Positions 3,539 to 8,878 of a stretch of DNA of 64,000 bases are shown in pieces. The first letter of the stretch is position 1. Every line of letters starts with the position of its first letter. Made by a program: the position numbers and the translations under genes. This DNA comes from a virus. The notes beneath the pieces are model-generated. The model was not told the DNA's origin. It did not search any database and saw only the letters and a program-made list of their open reading frames with translations. Location: the IMG/VR virus record IMGVR_UViG_3300044613_002638, positions 32,001-96,000 of that record; one strand, written 5' to 3'.

Positions 3539-5300
3539 AATTAAAACACTAGCAGTTAAAAACTTCATGAGTGTAGGAAATGCCACTCAGGCTGTTCAGT
3601 TTGATCGTAGAGATCTTACTCTAGTACTAGGACAAAATTTAGATCTAGGCGGAGACGACACAGGAGCCAGAAATGGAACTGGCAAAACAACCATTATTAA
3701 TGCACTAAGCTATGCGCTGTATGGATCTGCTCTAACTAATATCAAAAAAGATAATCTTATCAATAAAACCAATGGCAAGAACATGTTGGTTACCATTGAG
3801 TTCGAAAAAGATGGTATTGACTACAGAATCGAGCGTGGTCGTAAACCCAACACAATGGCATTCTATGTGGGCGGCCAAGAACAACAAATCACCGACGAAA
3901 GTCAAGGTGATAGTAGAGAAACACAGGCAGAAATTGAACGTATGCTTGGAATGAGTCACGACATGTTCAAACACATTGTGGCCCTTAACACTTATACAGA
4001 ACCGTTTTTAGCATTGAAGGCCAATGATCAACGAACTATCATTGAACAGTTGCTTGGTATTACTATGCTGAGTGAAAAGGCTGACGCACTCAAAGAGCAA
4101 TTAAAAGCCACCAAAGACGCTATTATACAAGAAGAATATCGTATCAAAGCAGTTACAGATGCAAACGGCCGTATACAAGAGCAAATTGAAGCCACACGGC
4201 GTAGACAAAATCTATGGAGAAATAAACAAGTAAATGAGTTAATAGAACTTGAACGAGCCTTAGAAGTTGTAGGCGATTTAGATATTGATCAAGAATTGCT
4301 CAATCATGACCTATTAGAAGAATACAATACCAAAACAAATAAACGTAAAGAAATATCTAAATGGCAGGTTGCATGTGAGTCAGAACAAGTGCGACTGTTA
4401 AAACAATTAGATAAACTAAAGTCTGAAATTGAAAAATTAGAAAAACATGAATGCTATGCCTGCGGTCAGGCAATTCATGACAGCAAACATGAGGAAGTAC
4501 TAGAAGAAAAACGTAATACACTAAAAGAAACTAGTTTACAATATCTTGCCAATGATACACAGCTAGCCGAGCATGTTGCGGCACTGGCACTTGTTGGTGA
4601 CCCAGGGAAACCCCCTAAGGTATTTTATGACAACAAAGAAGATGCTATCAATCATAAAAATACTGTGGCAAACTTGCGTCAACAACTAGAAACAAAACAA
4701 GCGGAAGTGGATCCTTATGAAGAACAGATTCGCGAAATGGAAACACAGGCGCTCGAAGAAATAAATTACGACTTAATTAATGAACTTGTTAACGTTCGAG
4801 AACATCAAGAGTTCTTGCTTAAACTATTAACCAACAAAGATAGTTTTATACGTAAACGTATCATTGATCAAAACTTATCATATCTAAACGCTAGACTAAG
4901 TCAGTATCTAGATCGTATTGGCTTGCCACACACTGTCAAGTTTCAAAATGATTTGACTGTCAGCATTGAAGAATTAGGACGCGAGTTAGATTTTGATAAT
5001 CTAAGTCGCGGCGAACGTAATAGATTGATTCTAAGTTTATCGTGGGCATTTAGAGATGTGTGGGAAAGTTTATACCAACCTATCAACTTGCTATTCATTG
5101 ACGAAGTTATTGATACCGGTATGGATAGCTCGGGTGTTGAAAATAGTTTGGCAATACTAAAGAAAATGTCACGTGAAGGTAATAGATCAGTCTGGTTAGT
5201 ATCACACAAAGACGAACTGGCTGGTCGTGTTAATAATGTATTGAGTGTGATCAAAGAAAATGGATTTACTAGCTACAATACGGACGTGGAAATAAAATGA
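3531..5300 (+). CDS. gp46: Recombination exonuclease ATPase, Rad50/SbcC-like
   Basis: Walker A NGTGKTT, coiled coil, zinc hook CYAC, signature LSRGE and Walker B LLFIDE. Likely start ATG 3531. Confidence 0.93.
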   Translation: MFKIKTLAVKNFMSVGNATQAVQFDRRDLTLVLGQNLDLGGDDTGARNGTGKTTIINALSYALYGSALTNIKKDNLINKTNGKNMLVTIEFEKDGIDYRIERGRKPNTMAFYVGGQEQQITDESQGDSRETQAEIERMLGMSHDMFKHIVALNTYTEPFLALKANDQRTIIEQLLGITMLSEKADALKEQLKATKDAIIQEEYRIKAVTDANGRIQEQIEATRRRQNLWRNKQVNELIELERALEVVGDLDIDQELLNHDLLEEYNTKTNKRKEISKWQVACESEQVRLLKQLDKLKSEIEKLEKHECYACGQAIHDSKHEEVLEEKRNTLKETSLQYLANDTQLAEHVAALALVGDPGKPPKVFYDNKEDAINHKNTVANLRQQLETKQAEVDPYEEQIREMETQALEEINYDLINELVNVREHQEFLLKLLTNKDSFIRKRIIDQNLSYLNARLSQYLDRIGLPHTVKFQNDLTVSIEELGRELDFDNLSRGERNRLILSLSWAFRDVWESLYQPINLLFIDEVIDTGMDSSGVENSLAILKKMSREGNRSVWLVSHKDELAGRVNNVLSVIKENGFTSYNTDVEIK

Positions 5301-5827
5301 AAATTGGAATTACTGGACATAGTCGTGGCCTAGGATTGGCCCTTGCTAATAAGTTATCTGCTAATAATCAAATAATTGGTTTTAGTAGATCTAATGGCTA
5401 TAACATTGCACATGTACATGAAATAATTAAGGATGCTCTAGATTGCGATATGTTTATCAATAACGCCTATAACAACTATTATCAAAGCGATTTATTATTA
5501 TATCTATTTAGATTGTGGCAAGATAATCCAAATAAATCTATTGTGAATATAGGAAGCACTGTAACTACATATCCAAGAATTGAAACGGAAATAGATCATT
5601 TACCTTGGGCATACCGTGATCATAAAATTGCATTAGAACGTTTATTTAGACACTTAGTTAAACAAACACATAAATGTCACATGTTGCTTGTAGCACCAGG
5701 TGCCATTGATACAGACATGATAGCACATCATAATGGTATAAAAGCGTCGGCAGACCAGGTAGCTGATATTATAATTGATGCAATATCTAAACCATTAATT
5801 AAAGAAATTACCATCTATGAACAATAG
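5297..5827 (+). CDS. Short-chain dehydrogenase/reductase
   Basis: ITGHSRGLG Rossmann motif, INNA, YxxxK (YRDHK) and PGAIDT. Confidence 0.82.
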   Translation: MKIGITGHSRGLGLALANKLSANNQIIGFSRSNGYNIAHVHEIIKDALDCDMFINNAYNNYYQSDLLLYLFRLWQDNPNKSIVNIGSTVTTYPRIETEIDHLPWAYRDHKIALERLFRHLVKQTHKCHMLLVAPGAIDTDMIAHHNGIKASADQVADIIIDAISKPLIKEITIYEQ

Positions 5828-6938
5828 ATATGGGTTTCAATTTTATCATTGGCATCTAGAACCCAGTTCTAGATGTACACTCAAATGCCCTAGATGTCCT
5901 CGAGAAGAAATGTCTAAAAATATTCCTTGGCTACAGAAAGATATCTCCCTTGAATTATTTCAAAAAGTGTTCAGTGAAGATATGTTGAAAACACAAGTCA
6001 AAAGAATTACTATGTGCGGAGATGTGGGCGATCCTATTTACTGTCGAGACTTTTTAAAAATTTGCAGCTATATTAAACAAGTTAACTCTAATATTCACAT
6101 TTATACAATTACCAATGGCAGCTACAAAAACCAAGACTGGTGGACAGAATTAGGAAAAATATTAAACGAACGCGATACTGTTGCATTCAGTATTGATGGT
6201 TATGATAACGCTAGTAATAATTTATATAGAGTGAATAGCAACTGGGAAAGTATTATTACAGGGGTAACCACGTTAACTGCTATGCGCAGGGCACATGTCA
6301 CATGGGCCACAATTGTTTTTGCATTTAATCAGGACCATTTGGAACACATCGAAGATTTAGCCAGATCCCTCAATTGTGATAGTTTACAAATCACAAAAAG
6401 TATTAAATTTGGATCAAGGTTTGAATCCTATATGACAGATAACAATTTTGATGCTTTAGAACCCCGACCAGAACATGTGAGTCAAAGCGGAAGATACGAA
6501 AGATATAGTGTACAACTAAGCAATCGTTTGATAGACAACACAGATTATTTAGAAACGAACCAGGTGCTTTGGCAACGAACAGTTGAAGAATACAAAAACA
6601 AATATGTTATTCCTTTGTGTCTAATAGGAAATAGAGGATTATATTTAAACGCTGCTGGACAACTTTATCCTTGTAGTTGGGTAGCTGCCCCGCACTTGGG
6701 CAGACATAGTCCAGTCACCGGAAAAAATTTAAAACTAGAAGATAGTTTATTTAGAAAATACGAGCACTTGTTTGATACACACAATCGTACTCTTGAAGAA
6801 ATTATTAACGATCCTGTTTGGGAAAAATTGTTTCAAAGTTGGAACAAGCGTGAAAATTCATTCATTGAGTGCGAGGAAAAATGCATAAGCAATCAAGTTG
6901 AAAAGTCGAATTACAGTGTAGGATATTTAACAAACTGA
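5817..6938 (+). CDS. Radical SAM protein with C-terminal SPASM/twitch-like Cys motifs
   Basis: CTLKCPRC; C-terminal C...YPC...CEEKC. Confidence 0.85.
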   Translation: MNNRYGFQFYHWHLEPSSRCTLKCPRCPREEMSKNIPWLQKDISLELFQKVFSEDMLKTQVKRITMCGDVGDPIYCRDFLKICSYIKQVNSNIHIYTITNGSYKNQDWWTELGKILNERDTVAFSIDGYDNASNNLYRVNSNWESIITGVTTLTAMRRAHVTWATIVFAFNQDHLEHIEDLARSLNCDSLQITKSIKFGSRFESYMTDNNFDALEPRPEHVSQSGRYERYSVQLSNRLIDNTDYLETNQVLWQRTVEEYKNKYVIPLCLIGNRGLYLNAAGQLYPCSWVAAPHLGRHSPVTGKNLKLEDSLFRKYEHLFDTHNRTLEEIINDPVWEKLFQSWNKRENSFIECEEKCISNQVEKSNYSVGYLTN

Positions 6939-6976
6939 ATATTTTATCAAGGAAAAATTATCATAACTAATGCTGT

Positions 6977-7411
6977 ATGTCATGGCTATTCGAGTCCACA
7001 CCGGTGGAATCACTTCCTGAAGATTGCGTTGGATTTGTGTATTTGATAACAAATACTGTATCTGGGCGCAAATATATAGGAAAAAAACTAGCCAAATTTT
7101 CAAAAACTACAGTAAAAACAGTAAAACTTAAAAACGGTACTAAAAAGAAAAAGAAGATCAGAAGCAAAATAGACAGCGATTGGCAACTATATTATGGCTC
7201 AAATGACGAACTTAAAAAAGACATACACACACTAGGCCCAGAGAAATTTACTAGACAAATACTATATTACTGTAAATCAAAAGCAGAATGTTCATATATT
7301 GAAGCAAGAGAACAATTCCGACACCAAGTCTTAGAATCAGATGATTATTATAACGGACATATACAAGTCCGTGTCCATGGCTCTCACATAAAAAACAAGT
7401 TAGGCAGTTAA
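6977..7411 (+). CDS. Small GIY-YIG nuclease (EndoII/Seg-like catalytic domain)
   Basis: GFVY-(10)-YIG, YYGS, conserved Glu (YIEARE) and YYN. A very basic insertion follows YIG; there is no C-terminal DNA-binding domain. Confidence 0.8.
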   Translation: MSWLFESTPVESLPEDCVGFVYLITNTVSGRKYIGKKLAKFSKTTVKTVKLKNGTKKKKKIRSKIDSDWQLYYGSNDELKKDIHTLGPEKFTRQILYYCKSKAECSYIEAREQFRHQVLESDDYYNGHIQVRVHGSHIKNKLGS

Positions 7412-7815
7412 GCTAGCACAGGCTAACATCGTGTGCCCTAGACCTGGTTGAAACATATGCAGGGACGGAAGCCTTCTCGCTGCAAGAAGCACTCAACTAC
7501 TACCCGCAAGGATGAAGATCGCAAACGCCGCGATTTAGTTGTTTGAATAGGATAACATGGCTAAAAAGACGTACTAGCGATAGTACACGTTTGCAATGCA
7601 GGCTGATATTTGTATTGTAAACCGCCGTTGTATAAAGACGGAGCTCGAGGTACCGGACAACCGCCTCTGTAATGCTCTAATATCAGTGACTGTGCTACTC
7701 AGATGAAGTCATACTTTTGCCCGCCCTGGGCAAAGAGTGACCAATTAATCTAGATGAAATCTAAAAAACAAATTGATGAGCGTAAGCGAAATCAATAGAC
7801 TAACGAAGTTAGTCT
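7412..7815 (+). ncRNA. Candidate large structured non-coding RNA (family not recognised)
   Basis: ORF-free, GC-richer ~400 nt with more than 10 consecutive helices, GNRA loops and G-U pairs. Includes a loop pseudoknot (7603-7608/7681-7686) and a long-range helix (7414-7421/7690-7697). Confidence 0.6.
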
Positions 7816-8045
7816 TAAAAGAATGGCATTCCAGACTTTTTAGCAGTTTCTAAATTGTCTTTTACAATTTCACTTATGATCTTTCGATCTTCAAAGCCAA
7901 GTAACATGGCTTCATCATAGGTAATACCGCCGCGCATGTACCAGCAGAATCTTAATATTTCGTCTTTAATTTTTCTTACTTGATTTTCGTAGCTCTTAAC
8001 TAAACCTAGAATGCCGTTGGTGTCGAGTGTTAAGAGCTGCTGGCG
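7815..8045 (-). CDS. gp51-like / tail-chaperone extension, probably reached by -1 frameshift from the upstream gene
   Basis: Open frame RQQLLTLD...FCWYMRGGITYDEAMLL...SGMPFF* (76 aa), missing from the ORF track. It has no ATG in its first half and begins at the slippery site T TTT TTC. Confidence 0.7.
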   Translation of the reverse strand, partial: RQQLLTLDTNGILGLVKSYENQVRKIKDEILRFCWYMRGGITYDEAMLLGFEDRKIISEIVKDNLETAKKSGMPFF

Positions 8046-8878
8046 AAAAAACTTGCGTAGTCAAATGTCAATGTTATATCAAATGTTTTAGTACATTCGG
8101 TACAAGTTCCTGCTTGTGATTTAATTGCGCCTTGACGATTTACTTCAATAATTTTATTCTGTAGTTCTTTACATAAATCAGCATCACAATTAAAATAAAA
8201 TTCTTCAATGAATTCTGGTTCATTTACTATGGTGCCAGTGTTGACTATTTCAATGTACTCGGTGTTATCAACTAGTAATTTTGCATTTAAATCAACTAAA
8301 CGAGATATATGTTTTTTATACTCTGCTACTCGGTTAATATCTTCGCTGCCGTCTAACGCTATGTTTTCTAGTACTCTTTGCTGTTCATAGTTAATTTTGT
8401 TTGTTTCGTTTAGACTGGCGTAATGTTGCGGTTTAATTTTAATTTTAATTTGATCATGTTCAATTTTTTGATTGTAGTCAGGCACTACCACACTATCTAA
8501 ATAGCCGTTTAAATCTACTTCAAATGTATTCTCTGCTTCGCAGTGCGGGCATTTGGAATCAATACTCATGGTATTACCGTATGAAGCTATTCTAATAGCA
8601 ATCAATACAGAATCAACATCAATACTGGGCATTTGCCATGCATCTGTGATATGCGGACAGCAACTTTGAATAACATCAACTACACCTTGACCATTTAACA
8701 ATGCGTCTGGCGTTTTTAACAGTATTTCATCTCTAGCTGTCATAGGGTAAACAGGTATTTCACCTATTTCTGGTAAGTCTAATCCACTGTTCCAAAATTG
8801 ACCACCACTGGGTAGTCTTAGATAAATTGCTGGCTGTCTGAAATGCGCTCGTAAAGGATTTACGGGTTTTTGGTCCAT
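8030..8878 (-). CDS. T4 gp26-like baseplate hub / tail assembly chaperone
   Basis: 'YLRLPSGG', 'PMTARDEILL', 'LIAIRIASYG', two CxxC pairs (CPHC, CTEC) and a near-terminal FF; adjacent to the tape measure gene. Confidence 0.75.
   Translation of the reverse strand: MDQKPVNPLRAHFRQPAIYLRLPSGGQFWNSGLDLPEIGEIPVYPMTARDEILLKTPDALLNGQGVVDVIQSCCPHITDAWQMPSIDVDSVLIAIRIASYGNTMSIDSKCPHCEAENTFEVDLNGYLDSVVVPDYNQKIEHDQIKIKIKPQHYASLNETNKINYEQQRVLENIALDGSEDINRVAEYKKHISRLVDLNAKLLVDNTEYIEIVNTGTIVNEPEFIEEFYFNCDADLCKELQNKIIEVNRQGAIKSQAGTCTECTKTFDITLTFDYASFFASSS

What the first reader, a model, noticed from the sequence alone, without database searches (positions are those of the whole stretch)
6977..7815. Unrecognised ~400-nt pseudoknotted RNA directly behind a minimal GIY-YIG nuclease: candidate nuclease-RNA system
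Seen: this is the only long non-coding stretch in an otherwise gene-dense window, and it starts right at the GIY-YIG stop codon. Nearly all of it can pair. Helices: CCUG/CAGG (7443/7460); CUUCU/AGAAG (7473/7485); CAACUA/UAGUUG (7494/7536), enclosing CC-GCAA-GG and GAUCGC/GCGAUU; GUACUA-GCGA-UAGUAC (7571-7586); a 14-bp stem at 7589-7622 with four G-U pairs; CCGUU/GACGG; nested GAGC..GAGG..CGG-ACAA-CCG..CCUC..GCUC (7641-7677); and a hairpin at 7713-7738. The 6-nt loop CUGAUA (7603-7608) is exactly complementary to UAUCAG (7681-7686), giving a pseudoknot. UAGCACAG (7414-7421) can pair with CUGUGCUA (7690-7697), closing the domain. GNRA loops and G-U wobbles favour a + strand RNA. Known: HEARO/OMEGA RNAs, group I introns, GOLLD and ROOL are large structured RNAs tied to nucleases or phages, but I cannot match this one to them. 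Inference: it is a new phage ncRNA or ribozyme, possibly an RNP partner of the nuclease, which has a basic insert and no DNA-binding domain. A replication-origin RNA is an alternative.
Basis: partly seen in the sequence, partly recalled or inferred. Interest (0 to 1): 0.88.

Follow-up and report, generated by a model that had tools for sequence, protein, structure and literature searches.

The report
Full-length Polynucleobacter-1 twin-box phage RNA
The gene-free 405 bases behind a small nuclease gene of this uncultured T4-like phage encode a real, knotted non-coding RNA whose first third is a catalogued orphan motif. Its function is unknown, but it almost always sits beside a small DNA-cutting or DNA-joining enzyme, in phages and in bacterial genomic islands.

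Summary
Window 7411-7815 (+) is a conserved structured RNA. On 53 relatives, 94% of predicted pair cells pair, against 31-42% in slid controls, and 60 of 90 pairs show compensatory changes. The loop/3' pseudoknot (7603-08 with 7681-86) covaries. The proposed "closing helix" does not, and the CCGUU/GACGG helix is weak.

It is not wholly unrecognised: 7411-7544 is Rfam RF01718 (Polynucleobacter-1, 106 bits). The other 270 nt are uncatalogued. They carry the same 7-nt word twice (AGAUGAA at 7701-07 and 7752-58). The two copies are identical in 133 of 137 relatives but differ between relatives. I found no partner for them, in cis or in trans. This scan has met this RNA family many times on other DNA (343 notes, at least 230 genomes).

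New here:
- **Nuclease slot.** The slot 5' of the RNA holds the GIY-YIG gene in 86 of 92 loci, and an unrelated PD-(D/E)XK nuclease in some of the rest.
- **Age of the nuclease.** The GIY-YIG gene is as old as the phage backbone and under purifying selection.
- **Bacterial context.** In Burkholderiales chromosomes the same RNA lies in a genomic-island core, between DUF6641 and a 188-aa tyrosine recombinase that has only the catalytic domain.

The RNA therefore does not depend on GIY-YIG, yet it keeps company with minimal DNA enzymes. Function remains unknown; an RNP role is neither shown nor excluded.

The parts
6977..7411 (+). 144-aa GIY-YIG nuclease gene (SegE-type domain only, no DNA-binding domain). 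Its stop codon abuts the RNA.
   Evidence: Pfam PF19835 E 1e-33; phrog_447. GFVY, YIG, R93, E109 and N126 are invariant in A2.
7411..7544 (+). 5' domain, equal to Rfam RF01718 Polynucleobacter-1. Helices: 7416-20/7432-36, 7443-46/7460-63, 7473-77/7485-89, 7494-99/7536-41, 7504-05/7510-11, 7517-22/7530-35.
   Evidence: cmscan 106.2 bits against a gathering score of 37, model positions 1-141. Helices 1-6 are 87-100% paired with compensatory changes.
7411..7424 (+). Small 5' pseudoknot: 7411-7413 pairs with loop bases 7422-7424.
   Evidence: Column pairs 7412/7423 (G-C 34, A-U 18; 98% paired) and 7411/7424 (89%).
7571..7586 (+). Hairpin GUACUA-GCGA-UAGUAC.
   Evidence: Helices 7-9, covarying. Covariation is also visible in the flanks of Weinberg's raw alignment.
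7589..7622 (+). 14-bp hairpin whose 6-nt loop (7603-7608) forms the main pseudoknot.
   Evidence: Helix 10: 94% paired, 13 of 14 pairs compensatory.
7681..7686 (+). 3' strand of the pseudoknot; pairs with 7603-7608.
   Evidence: Helix 11: 94% paired, 5 of 6 pairs change on both sides.
7625..7641 (+). Weak hairpin CCGUU/GACGG.
   Evidence: Helix 12: no compensatory change; the outer two pairs fail in 19-20 of 53 sequences.
7642..7676 (+). Core hairpin holding the near-invariant GGUACCGGNCAACCGCCU (7649-7666). This is the most conserved part across all phage classes.
   Evidence: Helices 13-15. The motif alone retrieved 120 viral loci.
7686..7707 (+). Module 1: GUGAC, a 10-nt linker ending in ACUC, then box 1 AGAUGAA (7701-7707).
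   Evidence: Twin-box analysis.
7716..7734 (+). Hairpin H, between the two boxes.
   Evidence: Helix 16: 98% paired. Class-B RNAs have a fully different but still complementary stem.
7737..7758 (+). Module 2: GUGAC, a 10-nt linker ending in AUCU, then box 2 AGAUGAA (7752-7758).
   Evidence: Box 1 and box 2 are identical in 133 of 137 unique RNAs. Mutual information between them is 1.0-1.1 bit at all three variable positions.
7772..7796 (+). Hairpin K: a 5-bp covarying stem around the conserved YGAGCN..AGCGAA loop.
   Evidence: Helices 18-19. It is also present in the bacterial versions.
7798..7814 (+). Terminal hairpin T, the likely 3' end of the RNA. On the other strand it reads as a terminator for the convergent gene.
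   Evidence: Helix 20: 96% paired, 6 of 7 pairs compensatory. Terminator-like on the minus strand.

Best explanation
Shown: 7411-7815 (+) encodes a roughly 405-nt structured ncRNA. It is the full-length form of the orphan Polynucleobacter-1 motif, which covers only its first 134 nt. It has sat in one syntenic slot in a deep lineage of T4-like phages: gp46, (optional genes), small nuclease, RNA, then convergent gp51-like/gp26. The same RNA family sits in the core of genomic islands of freshwater Burkholderiales.

The conserved business end is the 3' domain. Two structurally equivalent modules (helix, GUGAC, linker, YUCU/ACUC) each display the same single-stranded 7-nt word. That word is free to change between relatives but is always the same in both modules.

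Inferred: the RNA is an RNA gene in its own right, probably made as the tail of the gp46-nuclease transcript. It acts as a bivalent adaptor: the two words each read one copy of the same short trans-acting sequence, or the two halves of a dimeric partner. That would explain why they must match each other and nothing else in cis.

Inferred: The near-constant company of small DNA enzymes suggests the RNA serves a DNA transaction of viral or mobile genomes. Either it is the conserved landing pad next to which such enzymes settle, or it works alongside them. Which of these holds is not settled.
For: - Rfam hit of 106 bits.
- Structure: 94% paired against 31-42% in controls, 60 of 90 compensatory pairs, pseudoknot covaries.
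- All 73 GIY-YIG loci with enough downstream DNA carry the RNA.
- Synteny is fixed while gp46 identity ranges 53-88%.
- Twin words are identical in 133 of 137 RNAs. Mutual information with each other is 1.0-1.1 bit, and at most 0.27 with any other 3' column. Divergent and bacterial versions keep the rule with quite different words: AUGAAGA, UGGUAAU, ACGAAAU, AGCGAAA, ACCAAAA, GGAGAAA.
- Box 1 lies in a hairpin loop whose closing stem looks complementary in sequences read by eye (not counted formally).
- Independence from GIY-YIG: RNA without it; GIY-YIG family without the RNA; no residue tracks the boxes (maximum MI 0.38).
- Company of DNA enzymes: GIY-YIG in 86 of 92 loci; PD-(D/E)XK in L099, L134 and L148, and a long SegE+NUMOD3 in L200; 10 of 12 PD-(D/E)XK relatives are followed by the RNA core motif; tyrosine recombinase 3' of the RNA in 13 of 15 bacterial loci.
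Against: - No trans partner was found. Neither the reverse complement nor a further direct copy of the word is enriched within +-8 kb, in the window's own 107-kb record, or at flank-conserved sites in five phage genomes, two of them complete or nearly so.
- No transcript data could be obtained, so the ends of the RNA and its independence from the mRNA are inferred.
- About 98% occupancy of the 5' slot by a nuclease, non-orthologous replacement, and purifying selection on GIY-YIG fit functional coupling better than selfish homing genes parked beside an RNA gene.
Confidence: 0.4

Rival explanations
1. RNA cofactor of swappable minimal DNA enzymes. The RNA would be the nucleic-acid-recognition subunit of an RNP whose catalytic subunit is whichever small enzyme is encoded next to it: GIY-YIG or PD-(D/E)XK nuclease in phages, or a catalytic-domain-only tyrosine recombinase in bacterial islands. 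The twin words would specify one short sequence that must be the same in two partner sites, as the overlap region must be in tyrosine recombination.
For: - Three unrelated enzyme folds, all without a separate DNA-binding domain, lie beside the same RNA.
- The 5' slot is occupied in about 98% of phage loci, with non-orthologous replacement.
- GIY-YIG is under purifying selection and as old as gp46. Amino-acid identity is 0.74 against 0.64; synonymous third-position identity is 0.40 against 0.36.
- In bacteria the RNA lies 5' of the recombinase on the same strand, as bridge RNAs do in IS110.
- Words that vary freely but must match each other are what a crossover core would show.
Against: - The GIY-YIG family works without the RNA in cultured phages, and the basic insert is not specific to RNA-linked members.
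- No GIY-YIG residue tracks the words.
- No copy or complement of the word lies at the borders of the bacterial block or within +-10 kb. Genome-wide hits of flank plus word are at chance level.
- The word is not depleted in the phage's own genome.
- Seven nucleotides give little specificity.
- Roughly 1-kb genes are inserted between GIY-YIG and the RNA in about 9 loci.
- Some RNA loci have no recognisable nuclease (L090, L157, L085).
Confidence: 0.17
2. Cis-acting untranslated region. The structure would be a 3' UTR that stabilises or terminates the gp46-nuclease mRNA in phages and a 5' leader that controls the recombinase gene in bacteria, with no trans function.
For: - It starts at the stop codon of the nuclease gene, and no sigma-70-like promoter lies in front of it.
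- In bacteria it lies about 300 nt 5' of int188 on the same strand, and by my reading of L298 no U-run follows hairpin T.
- Weinberg 2010 scored the motif as possibly cis-regulatory.
Against: - 400-570 nt with at least two pseudoknots and an invariant core is far more than protection or termination needs.
- The same RNA is 3' of a gene in phages and 5' of a gene in bacteria.
- It is kept when about 1 kb of other genes separates it from the nuclease and when the neighbour changes fold.
- Twin words that must match have no role in this model.
Confidence: 0.1
3. Element that works at the DNA level. The twin words with their flanks would be directly repeated protein-binding or crossover sites: iterons of a replication origin, or cores for the neighbouring recombinase. 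The transcript would be an origin or primer RNA.
For: - Words identical within an element but different between elements are what plasmid iterons and recombination overlap regions show (my knowledge).
- The bacterial block also holds an AAA ATPase and a full-length integrase.
- The modules are imperfect direct repeats of about 23 bp.
Against: - The stems around and between the boxes show complementary changes rather than fixed sequence, which marks RNA structure and not protein-binding arms (for hairpin H; by eye for the box-1 stem).
- There are only two repeats, 47-61 bp apart, too close for intramolecular tyrosine recombination.
- Phage loci and the five phage genomes examined have no recombinase homologue.
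- No protein column tracks the words.
Confidence: 0.1
4. Self-processing RNA or bypass signal. The matched words would be two equivalent substrates (cleavage and ligation sites, or take-off and landing sites) flanking the roughly 50-nt hairpin segment. This is superficially like the gene 60 bypass of T4.
For: - Spacing is 47-61 nt around a stable hairpin.
- The word reads as a codon followed by UGA or UAA in 131 of 135 cases.
- Large conserved pseudoknotted RNAs are often ribozymes (my knowledge).
Against: - No open frame leads into box 1: the median is 6 codons, the same as the control frames.
- No Rfam ribozyme or intron family matches, even at E up to 10.
- No natural variant lacking the inter-box segment was seen among 137 RNAs.
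Confidence: 0.07

Closest known systems
Polynucleobacter-1 RNA motif (Rfam RF01718; Weinberg et al. 2010, Genome Biol 11:R31, PMC2864571)
   Same: 7411-7544 matches the whole model at 106 bits. Habitat is the same (freshwater and estuary metagenomes, Polynucleobacter). Position is the same, downstream of a small conserved gene with a cyanophage homologue. The function is unknown.
   Different: The catalogued motif is only the first third. The RNA runs on for 270 nt more here, and about 430 nt more in bacteria. That part has the main pseudoknot, an invariant core hairpin, two twin-box modules and two 3' hairpins, none of which is in Rfam. Classes B and C of the phage RNA have a different 5' domain that RF01718 does not detect. 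The 2010 paper found no example in a purified phage.
Bridge RNA / seekRNA of IS110/IS1111 elements (Durrant 2024; Hiraizumi 2024, PMC11208158)
   Same: A structured ncRNA is encoded next to a small recombinase in mobile DNA. Two display modules carry short programmable words. A short core is shared by both modules.
   Different: The enzyme here is a tyrosine recombinase or a GIY-YIG or PD-(D/E)XK nuclease, not a DEDD/RuvC-like recombinase. The two words are identical rather than target- and donor-specific. No match of the words to flanking DNA was found. The phage copies sit at a fixed syntenic site and are single-copy. No biochemical link is known.
HEARO / omega RNAs of IscB and TnpB (OMEGA systems)
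   Same: A large structured RNA keeps company with a compact nuclease gene. It was first seen only as an 'endonuclease-associated RNA'.
   Different: There is no Rfam match, no RuvC or HNH protein, and no variable guide at an RNA end next to a transposon end. The RNA also occurs without the nuclease.
Free-standing homing endonucleases of T4-like phages (Seg/Mob genes inserted beside conserved genes)
   Same: A GIY-YIG gene of the SegE type lies in an intergenic slot next to a highly conserved gene, here an RNA gene. Unrelated nuclease families alternate in the same slot. L200 carries a canonical long SegE+NUMOD3 form.
   Different: The 144-aa protein lacks the DNA-binding domain of Seg enzymes. 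It is present in about 93% of loci rather than sporadically. It is as old as the backbone and more conserved than gp46, unlike the invade-decay-loss cycle of homing genes (my knowledge).

Membership tests
Rfam RF01718 Polynucleobacter-1 | Covariance-model score at or above the curated gathering score over the full model | tested here: met
   106.2 bits against 37, model positions 1-141, window 7411-7544.
Rfam RF01718 Polynucleobacter-1 | Consensus helices kept through compensatory changes | tested here: met
   Helices 1-6 are 87-100% paired, and 19 of their 28 pairs change on both sides.
Rfam RF01718 Polynucleobacter-1 | Lies downstream of the GOS11034 gene family, which has possible homology to P-SSM2 ORF 218 | tested here: inconclusive
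   A conserved small gene (GIY-YIG, with homologues in about 400 cyanophage records) lies upstream. I could not check that it is GOS11034.
GIY-YIG nuclease superfamily | GIY and YIG motifs plus catalytic Arg, Glu and Asn | tested here: met
   PF19835 E 1e-33. GFVY, Y33-G35, R93, E109 and N126 are invariant in A2.
Seg-type homing endonuclease (T4 SegA-G) | C-terminal DNA-binding module (NUMOD or helix-turn-helix) after the GIY-YIG domain | tested here: not met
   The 144-aa protein is covered by the 123-position GIY-YIG domain alone. The long form with NUMOD3 is seen only in L200.
Seg-type homing endonuclease (T4 SegA-G) | Sporadic distribution and signs of recent horizontal spread | tested here: not met
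   Present in 86 of 92 loci at one syntenic site. Synonymous-site identity is 0.40 against 0.36 for gp46.
RNA-guided DNA enzymes (bridge RNA, omega RNA) | A variable RNA segment complementary to DNA at the element's target or ends | tested here: not met
   The word and its complement are not enriched within +-8 kb in 127 phage loci. They are not at the borders of the bacterial block, and genome-wide hits are at chance level.
RNA-guided DNA enzymes (bridge RNA, omega RNA) | Obligate co-occurrence of the RNA and one effector family | tested here: not met
   The RNA occurs with GIY-YIG, with PD-(D/E)XK, with a tyrosine recombinase, or with none recognised. The GIY-YIG family occurs without the RNA.
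RNA-guided DNA enzymes (bridge RNA, omega RNA) | Physical RNA-protein complex and RNA-dependent site choice | not testable with these tools
   Needs biochemistry.
Group I intron / HEARO / GOLLD / ROOL | Match to the family's covariance model | tested here: not met
   No hit, even at E up to 10, on 6900-8100. No interrupted gene on the + strand.
Translational bypass of the T4 gene 60 type | An open reading frame entering the take-off codon | tested here: not met
   The median open length before box 1 is 6 codons, equal to the control frames.
tRNA / tmRNA | ARAGORN detection | tested here: not met
   0 genes in the window.

The most novel reading that the evidence does not exclude
The twin-box RNA is the sequence-reading subunit of a modular ribonucleoprotein. 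Its catalytic subunit has been swapped during evolution: a GIY-YIG or PD-(D/E)XK nuclease in T4-like phages, and a tyrosine recombinase without its core-binding domain in Burkholderiales genomic islands. The two identical 7-nt words would select one short sequence that must be shared by two nucleic-acid partners. That would be the first RNA-directed tyrosine recombinase and the first RNA-directed GIY-YIG enzyme.
Probability: 0.13. Interest if true: 0.95.

Novelty: new variant of a known kind. Interest (0 to 1): 0.7.

Why it matters
Large, conserved, multiply knotted RNAs of unknown function are rare. In the past they have turned out to be ribozymes, riboswitches or guides.

This one is abundant. 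More than 587 IMG/VR stretches encode the linked nuclease, and 120 or more contigs carry the core motif. It is also present in cultivable Polynucleobacter strains, so it can be studied at the bench.

Three features give concrete handles:
- Two words that must be identical but may be anything.
- A nuclease slot filled by unrelated folds.
- A bacterial version beside a recombinase that lacks its DNA-binding half.

If the RNA proves to direct these enzymes, it would add a new class of RNA-programmed DNA tools. If it is a sponge or adaptor, it would reveal a partner that co-evolves rapidly with phages and islands. It also shows that RF01718 describes only a third of the molecule.

Tried and rejected
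1. **Closing helix 7414-21/7690-97.** It pairs no better than shuffled columns. Rejected in favour of the local Rfam helix.
2. **Coding reading of the gap.** The 36-aa ORF 7596-7706 ends in box 1, but no frame into box 1 is conserved.
3. **Hammerhead reading of hairpin K.** My reading of the alignments is that the core C is not conserved and the flanks simply pair.
4. **Cis partner of the boxes.** No column has mutual information above 0.27. Exact and wobble complements are not enriched. The apparent link to 7424, 7490 and 7742 is, in my judgement, shared ancestry within one clade.
5. **Trans partner in phage genomes.** The only flank-conserved hit in five genomes was a synonymous CAA/CAG change inside a coding region. 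Both large genomes carry tRNA-Arg(UCU) and tRNA-Gly(UCC), whichever word they have.
6. **GIY-YIG as reader.** No residue column tracks the boxes.
7. **Restriction-like model.** The word is not depleted in the phage's own genome.
8. **Recent horizontal spread of GIY-YIG.** Synonymous sites are as diverged as those of gp46.
9. **Word at island borders, or a third site in bacterial genomes.** Hits are at chance level. The one extra hit is a Shine-Dalgarno region. The nearby tRNA genes, tRNA-Phe in L281 and tRNA-Met in L283, showed no match to the word by eye.
10. **Similarity of GIY-YIG to a solved structure by sequence.** None found.
11. **Near-identical locus pairs with different words.** None is closer than 86% identity, too far apart for a difference list.
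13. **blastn of 6900-7900 against cultured phages.** No match.
14. **Literature.** No paper in the library links an RNA to a tyrosine recombinase or mentions DUF6641.
Full report
**What is there.** The ORF at 6977-7411 (+) is a 144-aa protein made of a SegE-type GIY-YIG domain and nothing else (Pfam PF19835, E 1e-33; phrog_447). From its stop codon to 7815 no ORF reaches 60 aa. At 7815 a convergent small gene and the gp26-like baseplate gene begin. The window is part of a 107-kb IMG/VR record of a T4-like phage. The + strand folds better than shuffles (z = -3.0) and better than the - strand (z = -1.7).

**Known part.** cmscan places Rfam RF01718 (Polynucleobacter-1) on 7411-7544 at 106 bits (gathering score 37), over the full model. 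Nothing else in Rfam 15 matches 7545-7815, even at E up to 10. Weinberg et al. 2010 (PMC2864571) described the motif from lake and estuary metagenomes and one Polynucleobacter genome. They noted that it follows a gene family with a cyanophage homologue, and found it in no purified phage. The flanks of their raw alignment already show conserved sequence beyond the motif.

**Conservation and structure.** A search with the GIY-YIG protein found more than 587 viral stretches. The best 80 loci are 70-96% identical in protein. In 71 of them nhmmer finds the whole 411-nt region downstream on the same strand. Six of the remaining nine loci are cut off by a contig end, and the other three (L020, L038, L056) carry divergent versions.

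60 of 90 pairs have changes on both sides, and no shuffle out of 500 reaches the observed values. The pseudoknot 7603-08/7681-86 is 94% paired, with 5 of 6 pairs compensatory. A second small pseudoknot (7411-13 with 7422-24) shows up in an all-against-all column scan.

- The closing helix pairs no better than shuffled columns (66% against 65%). Its 5' strand belongs to the local Rfam helix.
- CCGUU/GACGG has no compensatory change.

**Classes.** Phage RNAs fall into classes with different 5' domains. Only the Polynucleobacter-1 type is detected by RF01718. All classes share the same 3' domain: an invariant core hairpin, the 3' strand of the pseudoknot, two modules, hairpin H, hairpin K and a terminal hairpin.

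**Twin boxes.** Earlier notes of this scan pointed to a repeated 7-letter word, and I tested this here. After ..ACUC (module 1) and ..AUCU (module 2) the same 7-mer occurs twice, at 7701-07 and 7752-58 (AGAUGAA).
- It is identical in 133 of 137 unique RNAs. Three of the four exceptions are chance matches to the search motif rather than RNAs, and the fourth (L200) has a 6-nt twin.
- Three positions vary (A/G, G/A, A/U/G). Their mutual information between the two boxes equals their full entropy (1.0-1.1 bit). With every other 3' column or fixed offset it is at most 0.27.
- Divergent phage and bacterial versions keep the rule with unrelated words.
- Box 1 sits in a hairpin loop closed by a short stem that looks complementary by eye. 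That points to display on the RNA rather than a protein-binding DNA arm.

All of the following were negative:
- Exact or wobble complements and extra direct copies within +-8 kb of 127 loci.
- The window's own 107-kb record.
- Flank-conserved sites in five phage genomes, two of them complete or nearly so. The single hit was a synonymous codon change.
- tRNA sets.
- GIY-YIG residues.
- An open frame into the box.

**Link to the nuclease in phages.** Synteny is fixed: gp46, optional radical-SAM and SDR genes, GIY-YIG, RNA, optional inserts, then convergent gp51-like/gp26. This holds across gp46 identities of 53-88%. GIY-YIG is present in 86 of 92 RNA loci that have at least 3 kb of upstream DNA.

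It is not a recently spreading selfish gene. Over 3828 pairs its amino-acid identity (0.74) exceeds that of gp46 (0.64), while synonymous third positions are equally diverged (0.40 against 0.36).

Where GIY-YIG is missing:
- L099 and L134 carry a PF24608 PD-(D/E)XK endonuclease in exactly that slot.
- L148 carries one about 1.1 kb away.
- L200 carries a long SegE+NUMOD3 form.
- L090 and L157 show nothing recognisable, and L085 is rearranged.

Searching from the PD-(D/E)XK side, 10 of 12 relatives (down to 51% identity) are followed by the RNA core motif at the same syntenic site.

Against a dedicated partnership:
- The GIY-YIG family (T4-GC 213, often mislabelled NAD synthetase) is in about 470 cultured phage records. 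In the three I opened there is no room for the RNA downstream, and their genomes have no core motif.
- The basic insert and catalytic residues are shared by RNA-linked and RNA-less members.
- Genes of about 1 kb with no Pfam hit separate the nuclease from the RNA in some loci.

A motif from the Polynucleobacter version found 45 loci in species-representative genomes. About 20 of them, in Polynucleobacter, Limnohabitans and other Burkholderiales, carry the full RNA: RF01718 at 80-102 bits in eight of the nine loci tested (53 bits in L301), plus the core, twin boxes and hairpin K. None has a GIY-YIG.

The context is conserved down to 34-41% protein identity: a divergent DUF6641 gene, then the RNA, then about 300 nt further on the same strand a 188-aa tyrosine recombinase. 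This holds in 13 of 15 loci with enough DNA. The recombinase aligns only to the catalytic half of XerC/D/A.

In four genomes the block continues with two unknown genes, an AAA ATPase and a 424-aa integrase. Beyond that the flanks differ, and include resistance cargo. tRNA-Phe or tRNA-Met lies 4-5.5 kb away in two loci. This is the picture of a genomic-island core. There is one copy per genome.

Closely related bacterial RNAs differ in both boxes together: GGAGAAA, AGAGAAA and AGCGAAA. The word or its complement is not found at the borders of the block, and genome-wide matches are at chance level. Phage loci and genomes hold no homologue of the recombinase or of DUF6641.

**Reading.**
- Shown: a real RNA; the full-length form of a known orphan motif; twin matched words; independence from any single enzyme family; near-constant adjacency to small DNA enzymes.
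- Inferred: the words read two copies of one trans partner.

I rank an autonomous bivalent adaptor RNA first (0.40). An RNA cofactor of swappable enzymes comes second (0.17). That second reading is favoured by slot occupancy, non-orthologous replacement and purifying selection. It is disfavoured by the RNA-less nuclease homologues, the lack of any DNA match and the short word. A cis-acting UTR, a DNA-level origin or crossover site, and a self-processing RNA follow.

**Limits.**
- No expression data were available.
- Motif-based retrieval biases the sample towards conserved cores.
- Alignments are MAFFT-based.
- The bacterial analysis rests on 8-20 kb pieces.
- This RNA family has been reported many times by this scan on other DNA.

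Noticed in passing
window 7815-8051 (-): The frame downstream of the gp26-like gene (8030-8878) is conserved as protein in 91 of 98 related loci (33-77% identity by tblastn), although it has no early ATG. Another first-stage note proposes a -1 frameshift that fuses gp26 to this gp51-like frame.
   Followed up: partly
L039, L019, L044, L074, L010, L013 and others, between box 2 and hairpin K (window equivalent 7759-7771): Many relatives carry an optional UCGCUUCGCUC element, twice in L013. It is the exact complement of the conserved GAGCG.AAGCGA loop of hairpin K, which suggests an alternative pairing or switch. The window lacks it.
   Followed up: no
L298 3626-4063 (-) and 5074-5640 (+); also L273, L296, L281, L283, L309: Conserved bacterial triad: DUF6641, the RNA, and a 188-aa catalytic-domain-only tyrosine recombinase. 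It is followed by two unknown genes, an AAA ATPase and a 424-aa integrase, which together look like the core of a genomic island in freshwater Burkholderiales.
   Followed up: partly
L099 3896-4423 (-), L134 338-853 (-), L148 9425-9925 (-), L315-L325: A PF24608 PD-(D/E)XK endonuclease replaces the GIY-YIG gene in the slot between gp46 and the RNA in a minority of phages.
   Followed up: yes
G001 (347 kb, terminal repeats) and G002 (345 kb), the records behind L137 and L103: Complete or nearly complete giant T4-like freshwater phage genomes that carry the RNA also encode 27-28 tRNAs and a tmRNA.
   Followed up: no
window 5297-6938 (+): A short-chain dehydrogenase-like gene and a radical-SAM/SPASM gene sit between gp46 and the nuclease. 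The radical-SAM gene is present in about half of the related loci and the SDR gene in few.
   Followed up: no
L031 3429-4253, L011 3365-4435: Genes of 274 and 356 aa with no Pfam hit are inserted between the GIY-YIG gene and the RNA in about 9 loci.
   Followed up: partly
window 7513-7519: A third copy of GAUGAAG lies in the 5' domain. It does not follow the twin boxes when they change.
   Followed up: partly
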